From IMG/VR virus record IMGVR_UViG_3300008255_000086, positions 1 to 33,048 of that record: a DNA stretch of 33,048 nucleotides. One strand, written 5' to 3'. The notes beneath the pieces are model-generated. The model was not told the DNA's origin. It was given only the letters and a program-made list of their open reading frames with translations, and did no database searches. This document shows positions 1,693-31,735 of the stretch, one piece after another (within the stretch, counting starts at the first letter, position 1; every line of letters starts with the position of its first letter). A program made the position numbers and the translations under genes. Source of the stretch: a virus. Lineage: Duplodnaviria > Caudoviricetes.

Positions 1693-2082
1693 ATGCAAGG
1701 TAAAGCATTTACACAAGAGCAAAGAGATGTCATTATCCAAAGTCTACAACCATACTTAGAGATGGGGCTTTCTCGTAACAGGGCTTGTGATTTAATAGGT
1801 TTACCAGCACAGACATTATCTAACTGGGTAAAAGAGGATGAAGCACTTGGGATAAAACTGCAAGGATGGGAAAATGCAATGAATGTATTAGCAACTGCTA
1901 ATATTAAAAGTGCGTTAGAAAAGGAAGCTGAAACAGAGGACACTAGAAAAGAAACAAGTAAGTGGTGGGCTGAAAGAAGAATGAAGGAAGACTTCTCGCT
2001 AAGACAAGAAATGACAGGGGCAGATGGTAAGGAACTAAAAATAACATTTGATTCAGCATTCAAAGATGAATCTACATCCTAA
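1693..2082 (+). CDS. terS: Terminase small subunit (putative)
   Basis: N-terminal HTH (GLSRNRACDLIGLPAQTLSNW), C-terminal EMTGADGKELKI typical of TerS; directly upstream of terL. Confidence 0.8.
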   Translation: MQGKAFTQEQRDVIIQSLQPYLEMGLSRNRACDLIGLPAQTLSNWVKEDEALGIKLQGWENAMNVLATANIKSALEKEAETEDTRKETSKWWAERRMKEDFSLRQEMTGADGKELKITFDSAFKDESTS

Positions 2083-3496
2083 ACAAAAAGAAATAGTATC
2101 AAGTCCAGCAAGATTTAAAGTAATCAGAGCAGGTAGAAAAGGAGGAAAGACAGCAATGGAAGTTGAGGTTATTTGTTATAAGGCAATGGCAAGTGTAAAA
2201 GATTTAAAACTTACTAAGGAAGAGTTTAAATCAGGAAGGAAAGTAATATACATCGCACCTACTCAAACACAATCTAGAACTATTGTATGGTCAGCACTAC
2301 GAACAAGACTTGCAGGAATAGGTAAGTTCAATGAGTCTATGCTACAGGTAAAAGTACCTAATGCAGACGGACAAGAAACAACTATTATGGTTGGAGGATG
2401 GGAAAACAGAGAGAACTATCGAGGACTTACTGATGTTGTGCATATTACAGTCGATGAAACAGACACACTAAGAAACTTCTTTGAGGATTGGCAGGAGATT
2501 TTTAGACCTATGTTCCTCGATACGGGAGGTACGGCAGACTTTATTGGTACACCTAAAAAGGAGAACCCAAACCTTAGAAGACTAGAGAAGTTGGCAGAAA
2601 CACGAGATAACTATGCAGTGTTTCATTTTACATCAAAAGACAATCCACACATTTCACAATCAGAGTTAGCAGAGTTAGAGAAGGACTATGAAAACAATAG
2701 AGATGCGTATAAACAAGAAATCCTAGCAGAATACATTGATAACGAGGGGGCTTTATTTAAATACGATGCACTTGTTGATACTTTCACAAACACCGTAACA
2801 AAGAATGGAAACAAATATCTATTAGTCGATGTTGCAGATGATGGAAGCGATAAAACTATTTTTTCTTTCTGGGATGACTTAGAAGAATACAGACGAGAAG
2901 AATATCTGAACATAAACACTGAGGCAATCATTATGAAGATTAAAGACTTTGCTTCACTAGATAGAATCCCCTACTCACATATAGCAGTCGACGCTATTGG
3001 CGTGGGTGCAGGAGTGGTATCAAACTCCCAAATGTCTGGTGTGGTGGGCTACAAGGGCTCATATGGGGCTATTAAGACAGACCAAGACATTGTACGACTG
3101 CCTAATGTTGGTTATCTACCAAAAGCACCCATTTTAACTACCGACTACAAGAACTTACGCTCTCAATGTATGTTCACCCTTGCCGATATGATAAACAATC
3201 ACAATATCGCTTCACGAGTAGAGGGTAAGTTTAAAGAAATGATTATTGAAGAACTCTCTGTGTATCAAGATGCTTCAACTGGGGATGGTAAACGAATGGC
3301 TACAAAGAAAGAAGATGTTAAGGCGTTGATAGGAAGGAGTCCAGACCATTCAGATACTTGGCAAATGCGTATGTACTTTGTCTTAAAAGAAAAGATGCTA
3401 CCAAATAACACAGAGGAGATGAATAAGATAGTTGAACAGCAGCTACAACAGTTTTCTAAGAACCAGTTTAACCAATCATCTAACAGCGGTAGATAG
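2066..3496 (+). CDS. terL: Terminase large subunit
   Basis: LHPKQ, Walker A AGRKGGKT, YIAPT, Walker B ITVDE, GTP motif, nuclease DVADDGSD, C-terminal GRSPDHSD. Start moved to ATG 2066. Confidence 0.95.
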   Translation: MNLHPKQKEIVSSPARFKVIRAGRKGGKTAMEVEVICYKAMASVKDLKLTKEEFKSGRKVIYIAPTQTQSRTIVWSALRTRLAGIGKFNESMLQVKVPNADGQETTIMVGGWENRENYRGLTDVVHITVDETDTLRNFFEDWQEIFRPMFLDTGGTADFIGTPKKENPNLRRLEKLAETRDNYAVFHFTSKDNPHISQSELAELEKDYENNRDAYKQEILAEYIDNEGALFKYDALVDTFTNTVTKNGNKYLLVDVADDGSDKTIFSFWDDLEEYRREEYLNINTEAIIMKIKDFASLDRIPYSHIAVDAIGVGAGVVSNSQMSGVVGYKGSYGAIKTDQDIVRLPNVGYLPKAPILTTDYKNLRSQCMFTLADMINNHNIASRVEGKFKEMIIEELSVYQDASTGDGKRMATKKEDVKALIGRSPDHSDTWQMRMYFVLKEKMLPNNTEEMNKIVEQQLQQFSKNQFNQSSNSGR

Positions 3497-4197: not shown

Positions 4198-4228
4198 CAA
4201 ATAATCCAAAAATCAGTGGAATGATTAA

Positions 4229-6016
4229 ATGGATAAAGAACTCTCAAACCTCATAAAAACACAGGAGAAAGACTATATAAATGGAACTACAACAATATCC
4301 AAGTATGTTGATTATTCAATGTATGAAGATATCCAAAAGATTGAAGCATACTCTAATTCAAAGTTCACATCAGGAGACACAGACGCTCTTGGTAGAGAAA
4401 AACCTTTCTTTAACATCGTAACAAGTGCAACCAATATCTGGTATCGAGCAACTGATATCGACAGAAAGAACATCAAGTTAAGAGCAACAAAAGCAAAGCA
4501 CTGGATTGCATCTTTCTTGGCTAATATAGTCCTTCAAAATTGGATGCGAAAAGATAACTTCGGTGTATTCCTTAACGATTGGGGATATTCACTTTCTAAG
4601 TACGGTTCATCAGTAACCAAGTGGGTAGAAAAAGACGGAAAACTCCATAGAGCAGTTGTTGATTGGAATAAACTTATTGTTGACCCAGTAGACTTTTACC
4701 AAAACCCTGTTATTGAGATACTAGAACTCACACCCGCTCAAATCAAAAAGAATCCTTCGTATGACAAAGACCAAGTGAAAGCACTTATTGATACTGTTGC
4801 TACACGAGAAAACCTAGACGGTCAACCCAAGGATAATAAGACTGGATATATTAAACTCTATGAGATTCATGGAGAACTTCCACTTTCATACATTACAGGC
4901 AAACCAGAAGACGAAGATACATACGAACAACAAATGCATGTTGTATCTCTCCAAGAAACAAAAGACGGAGAAAAAGAAACCTTCTCACTCTATTCAGGTC
5001 GAGAGGCTAACAATCCATACTTTATTACTCATCTTATCAAGGAGGAGGGCAAAACACTCGCTATGGGGGCTGTTAAGTACCTATTCGAGGCACAATGGAT
5101 GACCAACCACACAGCAAAGAATATTAAAGACCAACTAGACCTTGCTTCAAAGCTAATTTTCCAAACATCAGACGGGAACTTTGTTGGACAAAACGCACTT
5201 AATGCTATTGAAACAGGACAAATCCTAATTCACCAAATGAATCAACCTCTTTCAACTGTTCCTAACGGTTCACACGATATCTCACAACTCCAAGCCTTCC
5301 AACAACAATGGAAACAAAACGGTAATGAAATGACGGGTATTTCAGAGGCTATGCAAGGTGCTACACCTAAATCAGGTACAGCATGGAGACAAACAGAAGC
5401 AATTCTTCAAGAGTCACACTCACTCTTTGACCTTATGACACAAAACAAAGGACTTGCTATTGAAGAAATGATGAGAGAGTATGTTATTCCTTTCATCAAG
5501 AAACAACTCAACAATTCAGAAGAAATTACAGCAATACTAGAAGCTCACGATGTAGAGAAAATTGATAAACTATATATTAAATCAGAAGTTACTAAGTTTG
5601 CTAAGGAAGAAATTAAACAACAACTACTTAATGGAGAAATCCCACTACCAGTAGACACACAAGGTATCGAACAAGACATACAAGCACAACTATCAGAACT
5701 AGGAAATCAAAGATTCTTTAAACCATCTGAAATAGAAGACAAGACATGGAAAGAAATATTTAAAGACTTTGAATGGGAAGTAGAAGTAGATGTTACAGGA
5801 GAATCAAGTGCAGCAAGCGAAAACCTCCAAACACTTGTAACTCTATATTCAAACCTTATCCAATCAGGAAACATGGATAATGCTAACAAGGTTATGAAGA
5901 AAATACTAGAAATCACACAAGCCTTCTCACCAGTAGAACTTATGGAAATGAAAGCACCTGCTCCACAGGTAGCACCAACTCAACCATTACCAGAAATGCC
6001 CGTTGAAACAACATAG
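4229..6016 (+). CDS. Portal protein (P22/podovirus-like head-tail connector)
   Basis: 595 aa mostly helical protein after terL; TGISEAMQG...TA motif typical of podoviral portals. Confidence 0.8.
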   Translation: MDKELSNLIKTQEKDYINGTTTISKYVDYSMYEDIQKIEAYSNSKFTSGDTDALGREKPFFNIVTSATNIWYRATDIDRKNIKLRATKAKHWIASFLANIVLQNWMRKDNFGVFLNDWGYSLSKYGSSVTKWVEKDGKLHRAVVDWNKLIVDPVDFYQNPVIEILELTPAQIKKNPSYDKDQVKALIDTVATRENLDGQPKDNKTGYIKLYEIHGELPLSYITGKPEDEDTYEQQMHVVSLQETKDGEKETFSLYSGREANNPYFITHLIKEEGKTLAMGAVKYLFEAQWMTNHTAKNIKDQLDLASKLIFQTSDGNFVGQNALNAIETGQILIHQMNQPLSTVPNGSHDISQLQAFQQQWKQNGNEMTGISEAMQGATPKSGTAWRQTEAILQESHSLFDLMTQNKGLAIEEMMREYVIPFIKKQLNNSEEITAILEAHDVEKIDKLYIKSEVTKFAKEEIKQQLLNGEIPLPVDTQGIEQDIQAQLSELGNQRFFKPSEIEDKTWKEIFKDFEWEVEVDVTGESSAASENLQTLVTLYSNLIQSGNMDNANKVMKKILEITQAFSPVELMEMKAPAPQVAPTQPLPEMPVETT

Positions 6017-6046
6017 TGGGCAGTTATCAACTAAAAAATCAGAGAT

Positions 6047-6581: not shown

Positions 6582-6634
6582 TTATAAACATAGTCCACTA
6601 AAGGACTTTAAAAAACGAATAATTAGACAAAACT

Positions 6635-7186
6635 ATGACAAATGAAGAACAAGAGGTTATCGACTCACAAAACGATACTGAGGAAACAGTAACTGACAAT
6701 GAAGAGGAACTAGAAATAGACCTTGACGAAGAAGTGGAAGAAGATGTTGACGCTCTTAAAAAAGAACTCGCAACATTGAAAGCTCAAAAGGCACATTGGA
6801 AGAAGAAAGCGAATACTCCAAAAGAGGATTCACCAAAATCAGAGAAAAACGAGTCTAAAAACTCAGACATCTCGACTACCGATATGTACTCTTTAATTAA
6901 GGCTGATGTAGCACCAGAAGATATTGCAATCGTTCAAAAGTTTGCACGAACAGAGGGTGTATCAATACAAGAAGCATTAAAAGACAGTGTACTTAAAAGT
7001 ATTCTTGATAAACAAGTTGAAACAAGGAAGACTTCACAGGCTACCAGTACTAGTGCGACACGAAAAAGTGTTGGACAGGTATCGGAAGAAACTCTTTATG
7101 AAACTGCTCGAACAGGTAAAATGCCTGAATCTGATGCAGACTTCAAAAGACTTGCAGAAGCTCGACTCAATCGTTTCAACAAATAA
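6635..7186 (+). CDS. Capsid scaffolding protein (putative)
   Basis: Very acidic N-terminus plus coiled coil, immediately upstream of the capsid gene. Confidence 0.7.
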   Translation: MTNEEQEVIDSQNDTEETVTDNEEELEIDLDEEVEEDVDALKKELATLKAQKAHWKKKANTPKEDSPKSEKNESKNSDISTTDMYSLIKADVAPEDIAIVQKFARTEGVSIQEALKDSVLKSILDKQVETRKTSQATSTSATRKSVGQVSEETLYETARTGKMPESDADFKRLAEARLNRFNK

Positions 7187-7224
7187 AAACCAGTGGGTTA
7201 ATAAAATTATAACCCAAAAATAAA

Positions 7225-8079
7225 ATGGCAAATACCATCGCATCACGAGTTTATCGTGACAAATATCGAAGGGCAACACTAGATACATTACTAAGACGAG
7301 CTCTTATTGCAGAAAAAGTTTGTGCAGTAGATAGTTCAGATGTAAAACGAATTCAATCACCTTACAGTTCAACTCCAACAGCAGTAGTTCAAGCAATCGC
7401 AGGTACATATACACCAGCAGAGTACACTACAACTGATGACACATTGACTGTAACAGATGAATTCATCGTTTCAGAACACATCTATGACTTTGAAGAAGTA
7501 CTAACACAATTCGACATTTTCGCAGCACGAACAGAACAACAAATGTTTGAAGTGGCTAACAAAATCGACAAATTCGTTCTTAACAACCTTTGTGAAGATG
7601 CAACAGGTGCTTACACTACTCCAGCAGGAGGGTTCTCAGCAGCAAACATCAACACAATCATGTCTAATCTTGCAGCTAAAGTAGCAGGATTTGCAGACGC
7701 TTACAACGGACTTTTCCTTGTAATCGAAAACACAGAAGTAGCAGGATTTGTTCAAGCACAAGCAACAAACGGATTCTCATTCTCAGATATGGCTCTTAAA
7801 AACGGATTCATGAACTCATACATGGGTATCGACATCCATGTAACACGAGCAGGAACTTTCGCAGATGAAACTCTTGGAACAACAACTTACACAAACGCTG
7901 GACACCGAGTATTCGGAGTTAAGAATGTGACAACATACGCTTCACCACGAGGAGTACGATTCGAAGAAAAATCAGTTTCAGGTAAAACTGGACTTGAAGT
8001 AGTTACTTGGGGATACATTGGATTCAAACTATGGGCTCCAAAAACAGACCTCATTGTTGACATCACAGTATCAGCATAG
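7225..8079 (+). CDS. Major capsid protein (HK97 fold, P22 coat-like)
   Basis: 284 aa; VANKID helix, GFMNSYMGIDIHVT and YIGFKLW motifs; strongly biased codon usage; follows scaffold. Confidence 0.85.
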   Translation: MANTIASRVYRDKYRRATLDTLLRRALIAEKVCAVDSSDVKRIQSPYSSTPTAVVQAIAGTYTPAEYTTTDDTLTVTDEFIVSEHIYDFEEVLTQFDIFAARTEQQMFEVANKIDKFVLNNLCEDATGAYTTPAGGFSAANINTIMSNLAAKVAGFADAYNGLFLVIENTEVAGFVQAQATNGFSFSDMALKNGFMNSYMGIDIHVTRAGTFADETLGTTTYTNAGHRVFGVKNVTTYASPRGVRFEEKSVSGKTGLEVVTWGYIGFKLWAPKTDLIVDITVSA

Positions 8080-8156
8080 TTATACACCCCTTTTGTGGGG
8101 GTAGTGGTCACAGTTTACCCACTGATTCTGTGACTACTACTCCCCCCGAAGGACTA
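8077..8156 (+). ncRNA. Structured 3' element after capsid gene with anti-leader loop
   Basis: Stem 8101-8113/8128-8140 (13 bp, one G-U) extended by GGGG/UCCC and CCUUU/GAAGG; closed by UAGU (stop codon)/ACUA; 14-nt loop UUUACCCACUGAUU. Confidence 0.75.
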
Positions 8157-8324: not shown

Positions 8325-8582
8325 ATGGCAGTACCTAATGGATTAGACCCACAATTTGGTGGAGTAGCAGGTTCGGGAACTGACATTGCTACAACAGCAG
8401 GAGGAGCAAAAGTACAAAATATCGGACTTGGTGGAATTGGTCTGTATATTGGTTCAGGAGCACCAACTGTTTCAGCAATTAAAGGTTCTCTATATATCCG
8501 AACAGATGGTTCATCATCATCAACTCGACTATATGTGAACAACGGAACAACAACTTGGGTTGCTGTAACAACAGCATCTTAG
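8325..8582 (+). CDS. Small virion protein (decoration/fibre-like)
   Basis: GSGAPTVSAIKGSLYIRTDG...RLYVN...W motif common in phage structural/fibre proteins. Confidence 0.65.
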   Translation: MAVPNGLDPQFGGVAGSGTDIATTAGGAKVQNIGLGGIGLYIGSGAPTVSAIKGSLYIRTDGSSSSTRLYVNNGTTTWVAVTTAS

Positions 8583-8625
8583 TTTCCACTCAGCCTCTCT
8601 ATATGGGAGGTTGGACTGGTAACTA
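8580..8625 (+). other. Intergenic hairpin starting on the TAG stop codon
   Basis: UAGUU/AACUA, CCA/UGG and 10-bp inner stem 8590-8599/8605-8614; no U-tract follows. Confidence 0.65.
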
Positions 8626-8635
8626 AAATATCAAT

Positions 8636-9856: not shown

Positions 9857-10414
9857 ATGAGATATAAGCAATATATAAAGAAAGATTGTGGACATTGCAA
9901 AATATCTTTTGAGGTACCACCAAGGAATGCACACAGAATATTTTGTTCCATAACATGTTCAAACGCAAAAGGAAAATGGCTTGGGAAGAAAAGAAGTCAA
10001 GAAACTATTGAGAAAATCAGCAAGACAAAGACTGGGAACTCGTTCGCAAACTCTGGTTCATTTAAAAAAGGACAAACACCATGGAATAAAGGAAAAATAT
10101 ATGAAGCAATCCTTGGAGAAAATCACCCAAATTGGAAAGGAGGAGTTACAGACATCAACAAGAAAATAAGACACAGTATAGAGTACAACATTTGGAGAAA
10201 GGCAGTGTACGCAAGAGATAACTGGACTTGCCAACATTGTAAAGTAAAGCAAAGATTTCCAGTAGCACACCACATTAAAACCTTCAAAGACTACCCAGAA
10301 CTTAGGTTTGATGTAGATAACGGACTAACCTTATGCCGTTCGTGTCACAAAAAAGTACACACAGAAATAGGTTGCAAAACAAAATTTACTAAAAGATTAT
10401 TAACAAACGCATAA
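9857..10414 (+). CDS. HNH homing endonuclease with NUMOD3-like DNA-binding region
   Basis: CxxC...FCSxxC, KRSQETIEKIS, GENHPNWKGG, RDNWTCQHC...HHI...NGLTLCRSCHKKVH. Confidence 0.88.
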   Translation: MRYKQYIKKDCGHCKISFEVPPRNAHRIFCSITCSNAKGKWLGKKRSQETIEKISKTKTGNSFANSGSFKKGQTPWNKGKIYEAILGENHPNWKGGVTDINKKIRHSIEYNIWRKAVYARDNWTCQHCKVKQRFPVAHHIKTFKDYPELRFDVDNGLTLCRSCHKKVHTEIGCKTKFTKRLLTNA

Positions 10415-21969: not shown

Positions 21970-22010
21970 TGTGGAAAAGTGTGTTGAAAACCTTTTAAAA
22001 ATGATATAAT
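21970..22010 (+). promoter_or_regulatory. DnaA-box-like sites + extended -10 TGATATAAT
   Basis: TGTGGAAAA 21970-21978, TGTTGAAAA 21982-21990, TGATATAAT 22002-22010. Confidence 0.6.
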
Positions 22011-22053
22011 AAAAATACACCGAAACCGATAGAAACGCCGAGAAGTACGCCGA

Positions 22054-22617: not shown

Positions 22618-22658
22618 TGTGGAAAACTTTTTATAAAAAACATTGAAAGTTGTATAAT
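22618..22658 (+). promoter_or_regulatory. DnaA-box-like site + TATAAT promoter
   Basis: TGTGGAAAA 22618-22626; TATAAT 22653-22658. Confidence 0.55.
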
Positions 22659-22664
22659 AAGAAT

Positions 22665-22812
22665 AGAGTTGTTTGTAGAAGGGGGTGAGGTAACTTTCCA
22701 GAGAGTACACCAAACCTAGTCGAGTGTGCTGATACCAAGAAACTAGTTAGGGCAAATCAAGAAGTAATCAGACAAAACCTTGTACTCCTCCCCTCCTGCA
22801 CACAACACGCTC
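22665..22812 (+). ncRNA. Putative structured RNA / long 5' leader (about 145 nt)
   Basis: Closing stem GUUGUUUGUAGAAGGGGG (22668-) with CCCCUCCUGCACACAAC (-22806); internal hairpin AGUACAC/GUGUGCU; starts right after a -10. Confidence 0.6.
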
Positions 22813-27895: not shown

Positions 27896-27919
27896 TTGTT
27901 ATTTGTTAATCCTGTCTAC
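27896..27919 (-). repeat. 24-nt leader GTAGACAGGATTAACAAATAACAA, copy 1
   Basis: Identical to 31712-31735 (+). Confidence 0.9.
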
Positions 27920-27925
27920 CTCTAT

Positions 27926-28013
27926 ATAATACACTATCAGTATTTATTGTAAAGTGAGTGAGTGTGGATAACTGTGCATAACTTTTACACAAGAACAAGC
28001 CAGATGATATAAT
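27926..28013. promoter_or_regulatory. Divergent early promoters flanking two tandem DnaA boxes
   Basis: Leftward TTTACA-16-TATTAT (27953-27926); TGTGGATAA 27963-27971 and TGTGCATAA 27973-27981; rightward TGATATAAT 28005-28013. Confidence 0.7.
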
Positions 28014-31653: not shown

Positions 31654-31705
31654 TGTGGATAACTCAAGTTAAAACACTTGCACCTTTAATACACTATGTT
31701 ACACT
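31654..31705 (+). promoter_or_regulatory. DnaA box + TTGCAC-16-TACACT (extended -10)
   Basis: TGTGGATAA 31654-31662, TTGCAC 31678-31683, TGtTACACT 31697-31705. Confidence 0.65.
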
Positions 31706-31711
31706 ATAAAT

Positions 31712-31735
31712 GTAGACAGGATTAACAAATAACAA
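31712..31735 (+). repeat. 24-nt leader GTAGACAGGATTAACAAATAACAA, copy 2
   Basis: Identical to 27896-27919 (-); begins about 7 nt after the -10 in both copies. Confidence 0.9.

What the first reader, a model, noticed from the sequence alone, without database searches (positions are those of the whole stretch)
7188..8156. Major capsid gene is bracketed by complementary UTR elements
Seen: the loop 8114-8127 TTTACCCACTGATT has reverse complement AATCAGTGGGTAAA. The capsid leader 7188-7201 AACCAGTGGGTTAA matches 12/14, the portal leader 4211-4219 AATCAGTGG matches 9/9, and the leader of gene 6047 has TAGTGGG (6014-6020) and AATCAG (6037-6042). In the capsid leader part of the target is sequestered in a local hairpin TGGGTTA/TAACCCA (7194-7216) ending 8 nt before the ATG, so loop pairing would open it. 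Inference: a switch that boosts or balances capsid versus portal synthesis.
Basis: partly seen in the sequence, partly recalled or inferred. Interest (0 to 1): 0.85.

Follow-up and report, generated by a model that had tools for sequence, protein, structure and literature searches.

The report
Phage RNA key unlocking capsid translation
In a large family of uncultured phages, a hairpin downstream of the major capsid gene carries a loop that has co-evolved to match the leader of the capsid gene and often of the portal gene, and this long-range pairing likely unfolds the capsid leader to switch on its translation.

Summary
This 33-kb podo-like phage has a long hairpin after the major capsid (MCP) stop. 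Its loop (8118-8127) complements the MCP leader (7188-7197). In one genome the match is weak evidence (0.4 expected by chance). Across 74 related phages the 10-bp helix covaries: 29 of 39 double changes in 37 independent tree pairs keep pairing, against 4 expected. The target overlaps a leader hairpin in 65 of 74, and binding is predicted to lower the cost of opening the start region from 8.7 to 3.8 kcal/mol. The loop also matches the portal leader in 21 of 55 loci, about 8 nt from the AUG. The gene-6047 match is weak. These phages rarely use Shine-Dalgarno sequences. Best reading (0.6): a 3' RNA key that likely unlocks MCP translation; whether it helps or damps portal is open. Against: no G-U excess in the helix, no RNA data, host unknown. 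No Rfam match or paper was found. This scan noted loosely similar guide loops in other phage families, not this one.

The parts
8089..8152 (+). Long 3' hairpin (rod) after the MCP stop; 17-bp core 8097-8113/8128-8144
   Evidence: z -5.8. 86 of 90 representative relatives have z<=-3 in the 100 nt after the MCP stop, against 5 of 77, 1 of 68 and 14 of 82 after three other stops; + strand more stable in 77 of 90. One copy in each of the 10 of 11 genomes where the model found it.
8118..8127 (+). Guide part of the apical loop (CCCACUGAUU; family consensus CCCACCGAUU)
   Evidence: Covaries with leader positions; the top 7 APC-corrected MI pairs all lie on the predicted register; 29 compensatory changes against null 4.1.
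8083..8103 (+). Early alternative hairpin H1, exclusive with the base of the rod
   Evidence: H1 of -5 kcal/mol or better in 71 of 74 loci; own arms fit better than swapped arms, p=5e-5; mirror control weak; rod favoured by a median 12.7 kcal/mol.
7188..7197 (+). MCP-leader target, starting just after the scaffold stop; 5' part is an unpaired toehold
   Evidence: Best-pairing leader of 48 ORFs in this genome.
7194..7216 (+). MCP-leader hairpin that takes the 3' part of the target and ends 8 nt before the AUG
   Evidence: -7.3, z -2.0. Target overlaps such a hairpin in 65 of 74 loci; arms fit own locus better, p=5e-5.
7225..8079 (+). Major capsid protein gene (284 aa)
   Evidence: phrog_267 major head protein, E 7e-9; weak T7-like capsid hits in PDB, E 0.02-0.07.
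4204..4234 (+). Portal-leader hairpin: target AAUCAGUGG (4211-4219) with its core in the loop; the outer helix covers the AUG at 4229
   Evidence: -7.7, z -2.7. Same design in 16 of 21 portal leaders that carry the motif.
4229..6016 (+). Portal gene, P22/SU10-like
   Evidence: No PHROG, Pfam or PDB sequence hit. Portal by ESM Atlas features and structure and by Foldseek against BFVD, E 2e-15 to named podovirus portals.
6014..6042 (+). Weak, split match before gene 6047; doubtful target in this genome
6569..6577 (+). Extended -10-like element (TGGTATAAT) before the probable scaffold gene 6635-7186; likely start of a scaffold-MCP transcript
   Evidence: Seen in sequence. -10-like motifs lie within 100 nt of 42 of 67 scaffold starts and 28 of 55 portal starts, against 1 of 46 for gene-6047 homologues. 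Scaffold identity is inferred from position only.

Best explanation
A long hairpin downstream of the major capsid gene displays a 10-nt loop that complements and covaries with the capsid leader, and this pairing likely opens a leader hairpin that would otherwise block the capsid start region, so translation is likely switched on by the mRNA's own 3' part. Shown: complementarity, covariation, conserved hairpins, few Shine-Dalgarno sequences. Inferred steps: (1) H1 forms first and shields the G-rich arm, then the rod forms; (2) the loop docks on the unpaired toehold after the scaffold stop and strips the G-C base of the leader hairpin; (3) about 28 nt of A/U-rich leader become free for a ribosome that needs an unstructured landing site; (4) the same loop captures the portal leader through its looped GGUG core, ending about 8 nt from the AUG. 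The sign of step 4 is open (unlocking about 0.5, damping about 0.4). Either way capsid would be favoured over portal.
For: Loop with own MCP leader -16.4 against -12.9 kcal/mol with other phages' leaders (88 loci, p<1e-5) and -7.9 with random windows. With each side anchored separately, the top 7 covarying column pairs are on register and covariation falls away outside the 10-bp helix (one flanking column at p=0.008). 37 independent tree pairs: 29 of 39 double changes keep pairing, null mean 4.1 (max 12), slid registers 2-5. Held-out distant phages keep pairing with different sequences, e.g. L221 (10 nt, two leader copies) and L222. Opening cost of -18..+13 falls by 1 kcal/mol or more in 66 of 74 and rises in 4. 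Net energy budget is negative in 65 of 74, median -6.2. The MCP leader is the top target in 8 of 11 whole genomes and in the top five in all 11. Exact target-orientation copies: 40 in MCP leaders, 22 in other leaders; loop-orientation copies in other leaders: 0. SD-like motifs at -14..-5 in only 33 of 540 ORFs. Without the H1 arm the nascent loop is predicted mispaired in 45-51 of 74 loci, with it in 19-29. No -10-like excess at the MCP 3' end (2 against 4 of 74), so no sign of a separate promoter.
Against: G-U pairs are not favoured over A-C mismatches in the long-range helix (10 against 9 in MCP leaders, 14 against 15 in other leaders), so the helix itself does not mark the RNA strand. 37 of 52 single-sided changes break a pair. 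The window's own helix has one C-A mismatch. 14 of 88 loci failed the motif filter, and 4 of 18 held-out loci gave no plausible exact target. The accessibility gain is partly built in: freeing any hairpin arm lowers opening cost. Energies ignore loop topology, kinetics and ribosome traffic over 900 nt. A few MCP targets end only 11-17 nt from the AUG. Long-range pairing near start sites was inhibitory in B. subtilis (PMC12697547, passages). Sequence alignment plus RNAalifold recovered only 5 rod pairs, so the rod rests on per-sequence folds.
Confidence: 0.6

Rival explanations
1. The loop is a long-range repressor. It binds leaders once the transcript is complete and blocks initiation, limiting head-protein output, above all portal.
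For: Portal targets end 5-15 nt before the AUG (mode 8), and three gene-6047-type targets end 0-3 nt before it, inside the usual 30S footprint (recalled). A core shown in a hairpin loop is the classic antisense-capture design (recalled). Distal pairing to start regions inhibits translation in B. subtilis (PMC12697547, passages).
Against: MCP targets end a median 28 nt upstream and their binding is predicted to free the start region. MCP, the strongest target, is the protein needed most. Ten MCP leaders use the portal-type layout.
Confidence: 0.14
2. The pairing mainly stabilises or processes the capsid mRNA. The duplex after the scaffold stop blocks 5' decay or a cleavage, the rod is cut by RNase III, and H1 then caps the 3' end.
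For: Precedent: hbs 5'-3' pairing (cited in PMC12697547, passages; mechanism recalled). The target starts a median 3 nt after the scaffold stop. H1 ends where the upper stem begins and is conserved. Similar long hairpins without the guide loop follow later genes.
Against: It does not explain why the target is wired into mutually exclusive, covarying leader hairpins next to start codons. No cleavage data.
Confidence: 0.12
3. The hairpin is a phage-made substitute for the anti-Shine-Dalgarno: it binds a ribosome (for example one terminating just upstream) and places it on GGUGG-bearing leaders.
For: The loop core CACC resembles an anti-SD and is nearly invariant. The portal spacing is SD-like. 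The genes lack SDs. About half of Parcubacteria lack the anti-SD motif (PMC9297842, passages). The 16S gene of a MAG holding one relative ends without CCTCC. Displaced copies mostly still follow a stop codon closely.
Against: The rod has no conserved sequence and spans 60-94 nt. MCP spacing is 23-40 nt in most loci. L221 and L223 drop the CACC core. Core constancy may reflect several targets: 19 of 44 CCACC loops have a portal site, against 1 of 11 others. Host unknown.
Confidence: 0.09
4. The motif is a double-stranded DNA site for a phage protein, present direct in leaders and inverted after MCP; covariation tracks the protein's specificity.
For: Symmetric G-U and A-C counts in the helix.
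Against: The inverted copy sits at the apex of a + strand-biased stem (325 G-U pairs against 32 A-C 1x1 mismatches; 77 of 90). Leader copies sit in covarying hairpins. No inverted copies in other leaders. Many independent co-changes among close relatives.
Confidence: 0.05

Closest known systems
Plant-virus 3' cap-independent translation enhancers (BTE, YSS, TED, kl-TSS; PMC5382211, passages)
   Same: A 3' hairpin loop pairs over a long distance with the 5' leader; for the BTE this pairing is required for translation.
   Different: Those bind eIF4F or ribosomes in eukaryotes. Here the setting is a prokaryotic dsDNA phage, no factor-binding motif is conserved, and the target is half of an inhibitory hairpin.
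Anti-antisense activators DsrA/RprA/ArcZ on rpoS and RNAIII on hla; synthetic toehold switches (recalled)
   Same: Pairing with the 5' arm of an inhibitory leader hairpin frees the start region.
   Different: Those are separate trans-acting RNAs. Here the activator would be a loop in the same operon, downstream of the gene, with no sign of its own promoter.
Bacterial 5'-3' intramolecular pairings: B. subtilis hbs, S. aureus icaR (named in PMC12697547, passages), hok fbi-tac (recalled)
   Same: Distal ends of one mRNA pair and affect expression.
   Different: As I recall them, known cases stabilise or repress single genes. This one uses a displayed loop, addresses several leaders, covaries across a family and is predicted to activate.
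ColIb-P9 repZ pseudoknot (RF01087; title and table row seen in PMC3516145; mechanism recalled)
   Same: A hairpin loop pairs with a leader site next to an upstream gene's stop and switches on translation.
   Different: The repZ loop lies about 100 nt upstream (recalled) and acts on one SD-led gene. Here it lies about 900 nt or more downstream in SD-poor genes. No Rfam match.

Membership tests
3' CITE | 3' loop complementary to the 5' leader, conserved by covariation | tested here: met
3' CITE | Replaces the cap by binding eIF4E/eIF4G or 40S in a eukaryotic RNA virus | tested here: not met
   The genome is a dsDNA tailed phage with terminase, portal and HK97-type capsid genes. Works like one at most.
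Anti-antisense activator sRNA | Target overlaps the 5' arm of a hairpin that covers the initiation region | tested here: met
   65 of 74 MCP leaders; 16 of 21 portal leaders with the motif; predicted structures
Anti-antisense activator sRNA | Separate transcript with its own promoter and terminator | tested here: not met
   -10-like motif in 2 of 74 MCP 3' ends against 4 of 74 mid-gene; no U-tract after the rod in 74 of 74. Release by processing was not testable.
Anti-antisense activator sRNA | Measured increase in target translation | not testable with these tools
   Needs reporter or toeprint
Intrinsic terminator | Stem followed by a U-tract | tested here: not met
   0 of 74 on the + strand and 3 of 74 on the - strand; not called
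Any Rfam 15 family | Score at or above the gathering threshold | tested here: not met
   0 hits in the window and in 10 related loci; only two chance hits at E 2.9-4.6
Fremin 2023 phage candidate structured RNAs | Match to one of the published alignments or models | tested here: inconclusive
   Four motif spellings found in 0 files, but 3 of 6 listed files were not searched and three more were too large to read

The most novel reading that the evidence does not exclude
A phage family whose genes lack Shine-Dalgarno sequences encodes its own anti-Shine-Dalgarno: one hairpin loop after the capsid gene base-pairs with GGUGG-type sites in the capsid, portal and other head-gene leaders and delivers or recycles ribosomes to them, setting head stoichiometry by spacing and pairing strength.
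Probability: 0.1. Interest if true: 0.95.

Novelty: new variant of a known kind. Interest (0 to 1): 0.78.

Why it matters
A 2025 preprint says few long-range interactions in bacterial mRNAs have been reported and names hbs and icaR (PMC12697547, passages). This element gives a covariation-backed natural example across dozens of divergent phages. If it activates, it would be a prokaryotic counterpart of plant-virus 3' enhancers and a natural toehold switch. It also offers a testable answer to how phages without Shine-Dalgarno sequences make hundreds of capsid subunits per dozen portals from shared transcripts. The parts are short and portable, so a compensatory-mutation reporter can decide the question.

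Tried and rejected
Stop-codon readthrough into gene 8170: in frame, but TGA and TAA intervene (read). Intrinsic terminator: no U-tract. Rfam: none. Strict need for the hairpin to follow the MCP stop: rejected, since in 7 loci it lies 296-1067 nt downstream, behind inserted genes, and still matches the leader. Scaffold leader as target: 3 of 67 in the top 5% of random windows. Homologues of 8636: 8 of 48 carry the motif, no cognate excess (p=0.48). In one search the 'random windows' mean for portal (38.2) is a script artefact and was not used, and energy-based cognate tests can be inflated by shared G+C, so pair-count and tree tests were preferred. MAFFT plus RNAalifold of 38 elements gave only 5 pairs; the model built on it served only to count copies. 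Expression: no RNA holder listed. No relative among 50,697 GenBank phages. Host: 13 MAG contigs hold relatives (6 Patescibacteria, 2 DPANN, 2 Bacteroidota, 3 other), 12 of them on short contigs. One lies in a 45% GC block within a 62% GC, SD-using acidobacterial contig. Samples of 400 and 300 further genomes from the phyla of two such MAGs gave none. A record classed as provirus showed no telling host gene among the 14 ORFs scanned. No Foldseek comparison with solved structures was obtained. The tree used was FastTree; the IQ-TREE search did not finish.

Full report
Setting. The window is a complete phage record with direct terminal repeats. The head module runs terminase large subunit 2048-3496, gene 3544, portal 4229-6016, gene 6047, probable scaffold 6635-7186 (by position only) and major capsid protein (MCP) 7225-8079 (phrog_267, E 7e-9). 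The portal had no sequence hit but matches P22/SU10-type portals by ESM Atlas and by an AlphaFold model searched against BFVD. Leaders are A/U-rich: across this and ten related genomes 33 of 540 ORFs have an SD-like motif at -14..-5. The host is unresolved.

Observation. Every quoted sequence is present. The 3' hairpin spans 8089-8152 with a 17-bp core and a 14-nt loop that is unpaired in the centroid (-36.5 kcal/mol, z -5.8). The MCP leader is the only other site within 2 mismatches of the loop's complement, but 0.4 such sites are expected by chance. The single genome therefore proves little. Among 48 called ORFs the MCP and portal leaders rank first and second for pairing with the loop; gene 6047 is third, at background level.

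Relatives. Scans of viral, metagenome and genome collections gave 188 loci including the window, after removing two copies of it. I dropped 35 (25 without ATG at the expected place, 8 short flanks, 2 partial) and reduced the 153 left to 90 representatives below 90% MCP identity. In 86 of 90 the 100 nt after the MCP stop fold at z<=-3, against 5 of 77, 1 of 68 and 14 of 82 after three other stops; the + strand is more stable in 77 of 90. In 88 loci with a stem of 15 bp or more, the apex pairs with its own MCP leader at -16.4 kcal/mol, with other phages' leaders at -12.9 (p<1e-5) and with random windows at -7.9.

Covariation. I anchored leader and loop motifs separately; 74 of 88 loci passed the score filter and 14 were dropped. 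The helix is 10 bp, consensus AAUCGGUGGG with CCCACCGAUU, and the seven best APC-corrected column pairs all lie on its register. On a FastTree MCP tree, 37 independent tip pairs show 39 double changes; 29 keep pairing, against a null mean of 4.1 (max 12 in 3000) and 2-5 for slid registers. Against this, 37 of 52 one-sided changes break a pair. In 18 loci outside the 74, nine have an exact complement of 7-10 nt within 90 nt of the MCP start, five have it 570-690 nt upstream ahead of an inserted ORF, and four have no plausible one. L221 uses an unrelated 10-mer, present twice in its leader. In seven loci the hairpin is displaced 296-1067 nt behind inserted genes and still matches. A model of the element finds one copy in 10 of 11 whole genomes.

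Leader anatomy. The MCP target starts a median 3 nt after the scaffold stop and ends a median 28 nt before the AUG. In 65 of 74 loci it overlaps a local hairpin, whose arms fit their own locus better than others (p=5e-5). Freeing the target lowers the predicted cost of opening -18..+13 from 8.7 to 3.8 kcal/mol; the cost falls by 1 or more in 66 and rises in 4. Duplex energy plus the costs of opening target and loop is negative in 65 of 74, median -6.2, window -5.5. In 47 loci the 3' half is sequestered and the 5' half is a toehold; in 10 the reverse holds. Portal leaders carry the motif in 21 of 55 loci, 5-15 nt before the AUG in 20 of them. In 16 the GGUG core sits in a hairpin loop with the 5' part paired, and they match their own loop better than others (181 of 210 Watson-Crick pairs, p=2e-4). 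In the window that hairpin covers the AUG. Gene-6047 and gene-8636 homologues carry the motif in 9 of 46 and 8 of 48 without cognate excess. Genome-wide, the MCP leader is the top target in 8 of 11 genomes.

The 3' element has a second fold. A short hairpin H1 starting about 5 nt after the stop forms in 71 of 74 loci, with cognate arms (p=5e-5) and only a weak mirror-side control; the long rod beats it by a median 12.7 kcal/mol. Removing its 5' arm roughly doubles the loci in which the nascent loop is predicted to mispair, so H1 may guide folding. A role as pause or as 3' end after processing is not excluded. There is no U-tract and no sign of a promoter for a separate RNA.

Mechanism. Shown: complementarity, covariation, conserved mutually exclusive hairpins, orientation asymmetry (no loop-orientation copy in other leaders). 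Inferred: the loop docks on the toehold, removes the G-C base of the leader hairpin and exposes an A/U-rich landing site. Flavobacterium lacks SDs and tunes initiation by mRNA structure (PMC6847099, start of abstract in listing), which fits if the host behaves alike. MCP synthesis would thus depend on a transcript that reaches past the gene. The scaffold promoter-like element (42 of 67) would supply many short transcripts with only the MCP target. For portal the duplex ends inside the recalled 30S footprint, so it may unlock weakly or damp; I cannot decide. Confidence 0.6. Results against: no G-U excess in the helix (10 against 9 A-C; 14 against 15), only 5 rod pairs from a sequence alignment, models that ignore topology and kinetics, and evidence from B. 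subtilis that distal pairing near starts inhibits (PMC12697547, passages). Rivals are repression (0.14), stabilisation or processing (0.12), an anti-SD substitute (0.09) and a DNA operator (0.05).

Comparison. It works like plant-virus 3' enhancers, where a BTE loop must pair with the 5' UTR (PMC5382211, passages), and like anti-antisense activators (recalled), but fails membership of both. hbs and icaR are the bacterial 5'-3' precedents. For repZ I saw only a title and a table row. Rfam gave nothing. Ten full-text searches listed no paper on this element; the library lacks most subscription papers. The Fremin 2023 catalogue (PMC10690425, passages) was built from IMG/VR intergenic regions and may contain the hairpin alone: its alignment files could not be searched. 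PMC9297842 (passages) reports the anti-SD motif in 48% of Parcubacteria. A patescibacterial phage preprint (10.1101/2024.03.08.584096, passages) had no bearing. Earlier scan notes show no look-alike of this DNA but analogous guide loops in other phage families; these are unchecked leads, one marked as partly fallen.

Verdict. A real, family-wide long-range RNA element, apparently undescribed; new variant of a known kind; interest 0.78. Function is untested.

Noticed in passing
L050, L176, L025, L104, L226, between scaffold and MCP: A 155-176 aa ORF is inserted between scaffold and MCP. The best loop target lies upstream of the insert, 570-690 nt before MCP, and in L050 and L176 MCP has ATA or ATC where Met is expected. 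Possible introns or coupled non-AUG starts.
   Followed up: partly
L111, L119, L120, L058, L048, L022, L024, L137 and others: MCP appears to start with GTG or TTG in about half of the 20 ATG-less loci inspected.
   Followed up: partly
window 8580-8629: A second strong hairpin before gene 8636 (z -4.9). Many relatives have one, some with the H1-plus-rod design but no guide loop; in L063 its loop shows the target motif.
   Followed up: partly
window 6592-6607 and scaffold leaders of relatives: A recurring small leader hairpin, often GG...CC followed by an A-run about 13 nt before the scaffold AUG; not a loop target.
   Followed up: no
L016, L024, L108, L221 MCP leaders: Two or three tandem copies of the target; 8 of 74 filtered loci have more than one.
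   Followed up: partly
window 27896-27926 and 31705-31735: A 31-nt, 94% inverted pair; both copies are leaders of small genes (27888 on -, 31744 on +), likely a duplicated promoter or leader.
   Followed up: no
window 21970-22017 and 22618-22665: Two similar promoter-like blocks beginning with a DnaA-box-like TGTGGAAAA (label recalled); 6 such motifs in the window.
   Followed up: no
L190:2200-2300: The 16S gene in a MAG labelled Saccharibacteria ends without a CCTCC anti-SD.
   Followed up: no
G001:C22, about 20-57 kb (L097, L194): A relative sits in a 45% GC block with an integrase gene at one end, inside a 62% GC acidobacterial contig: prophage or chimeric assembly.
   Followed up: partly
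window 9857-10414: HNH endonuclease gene inside the structural module.
   Followed up: no
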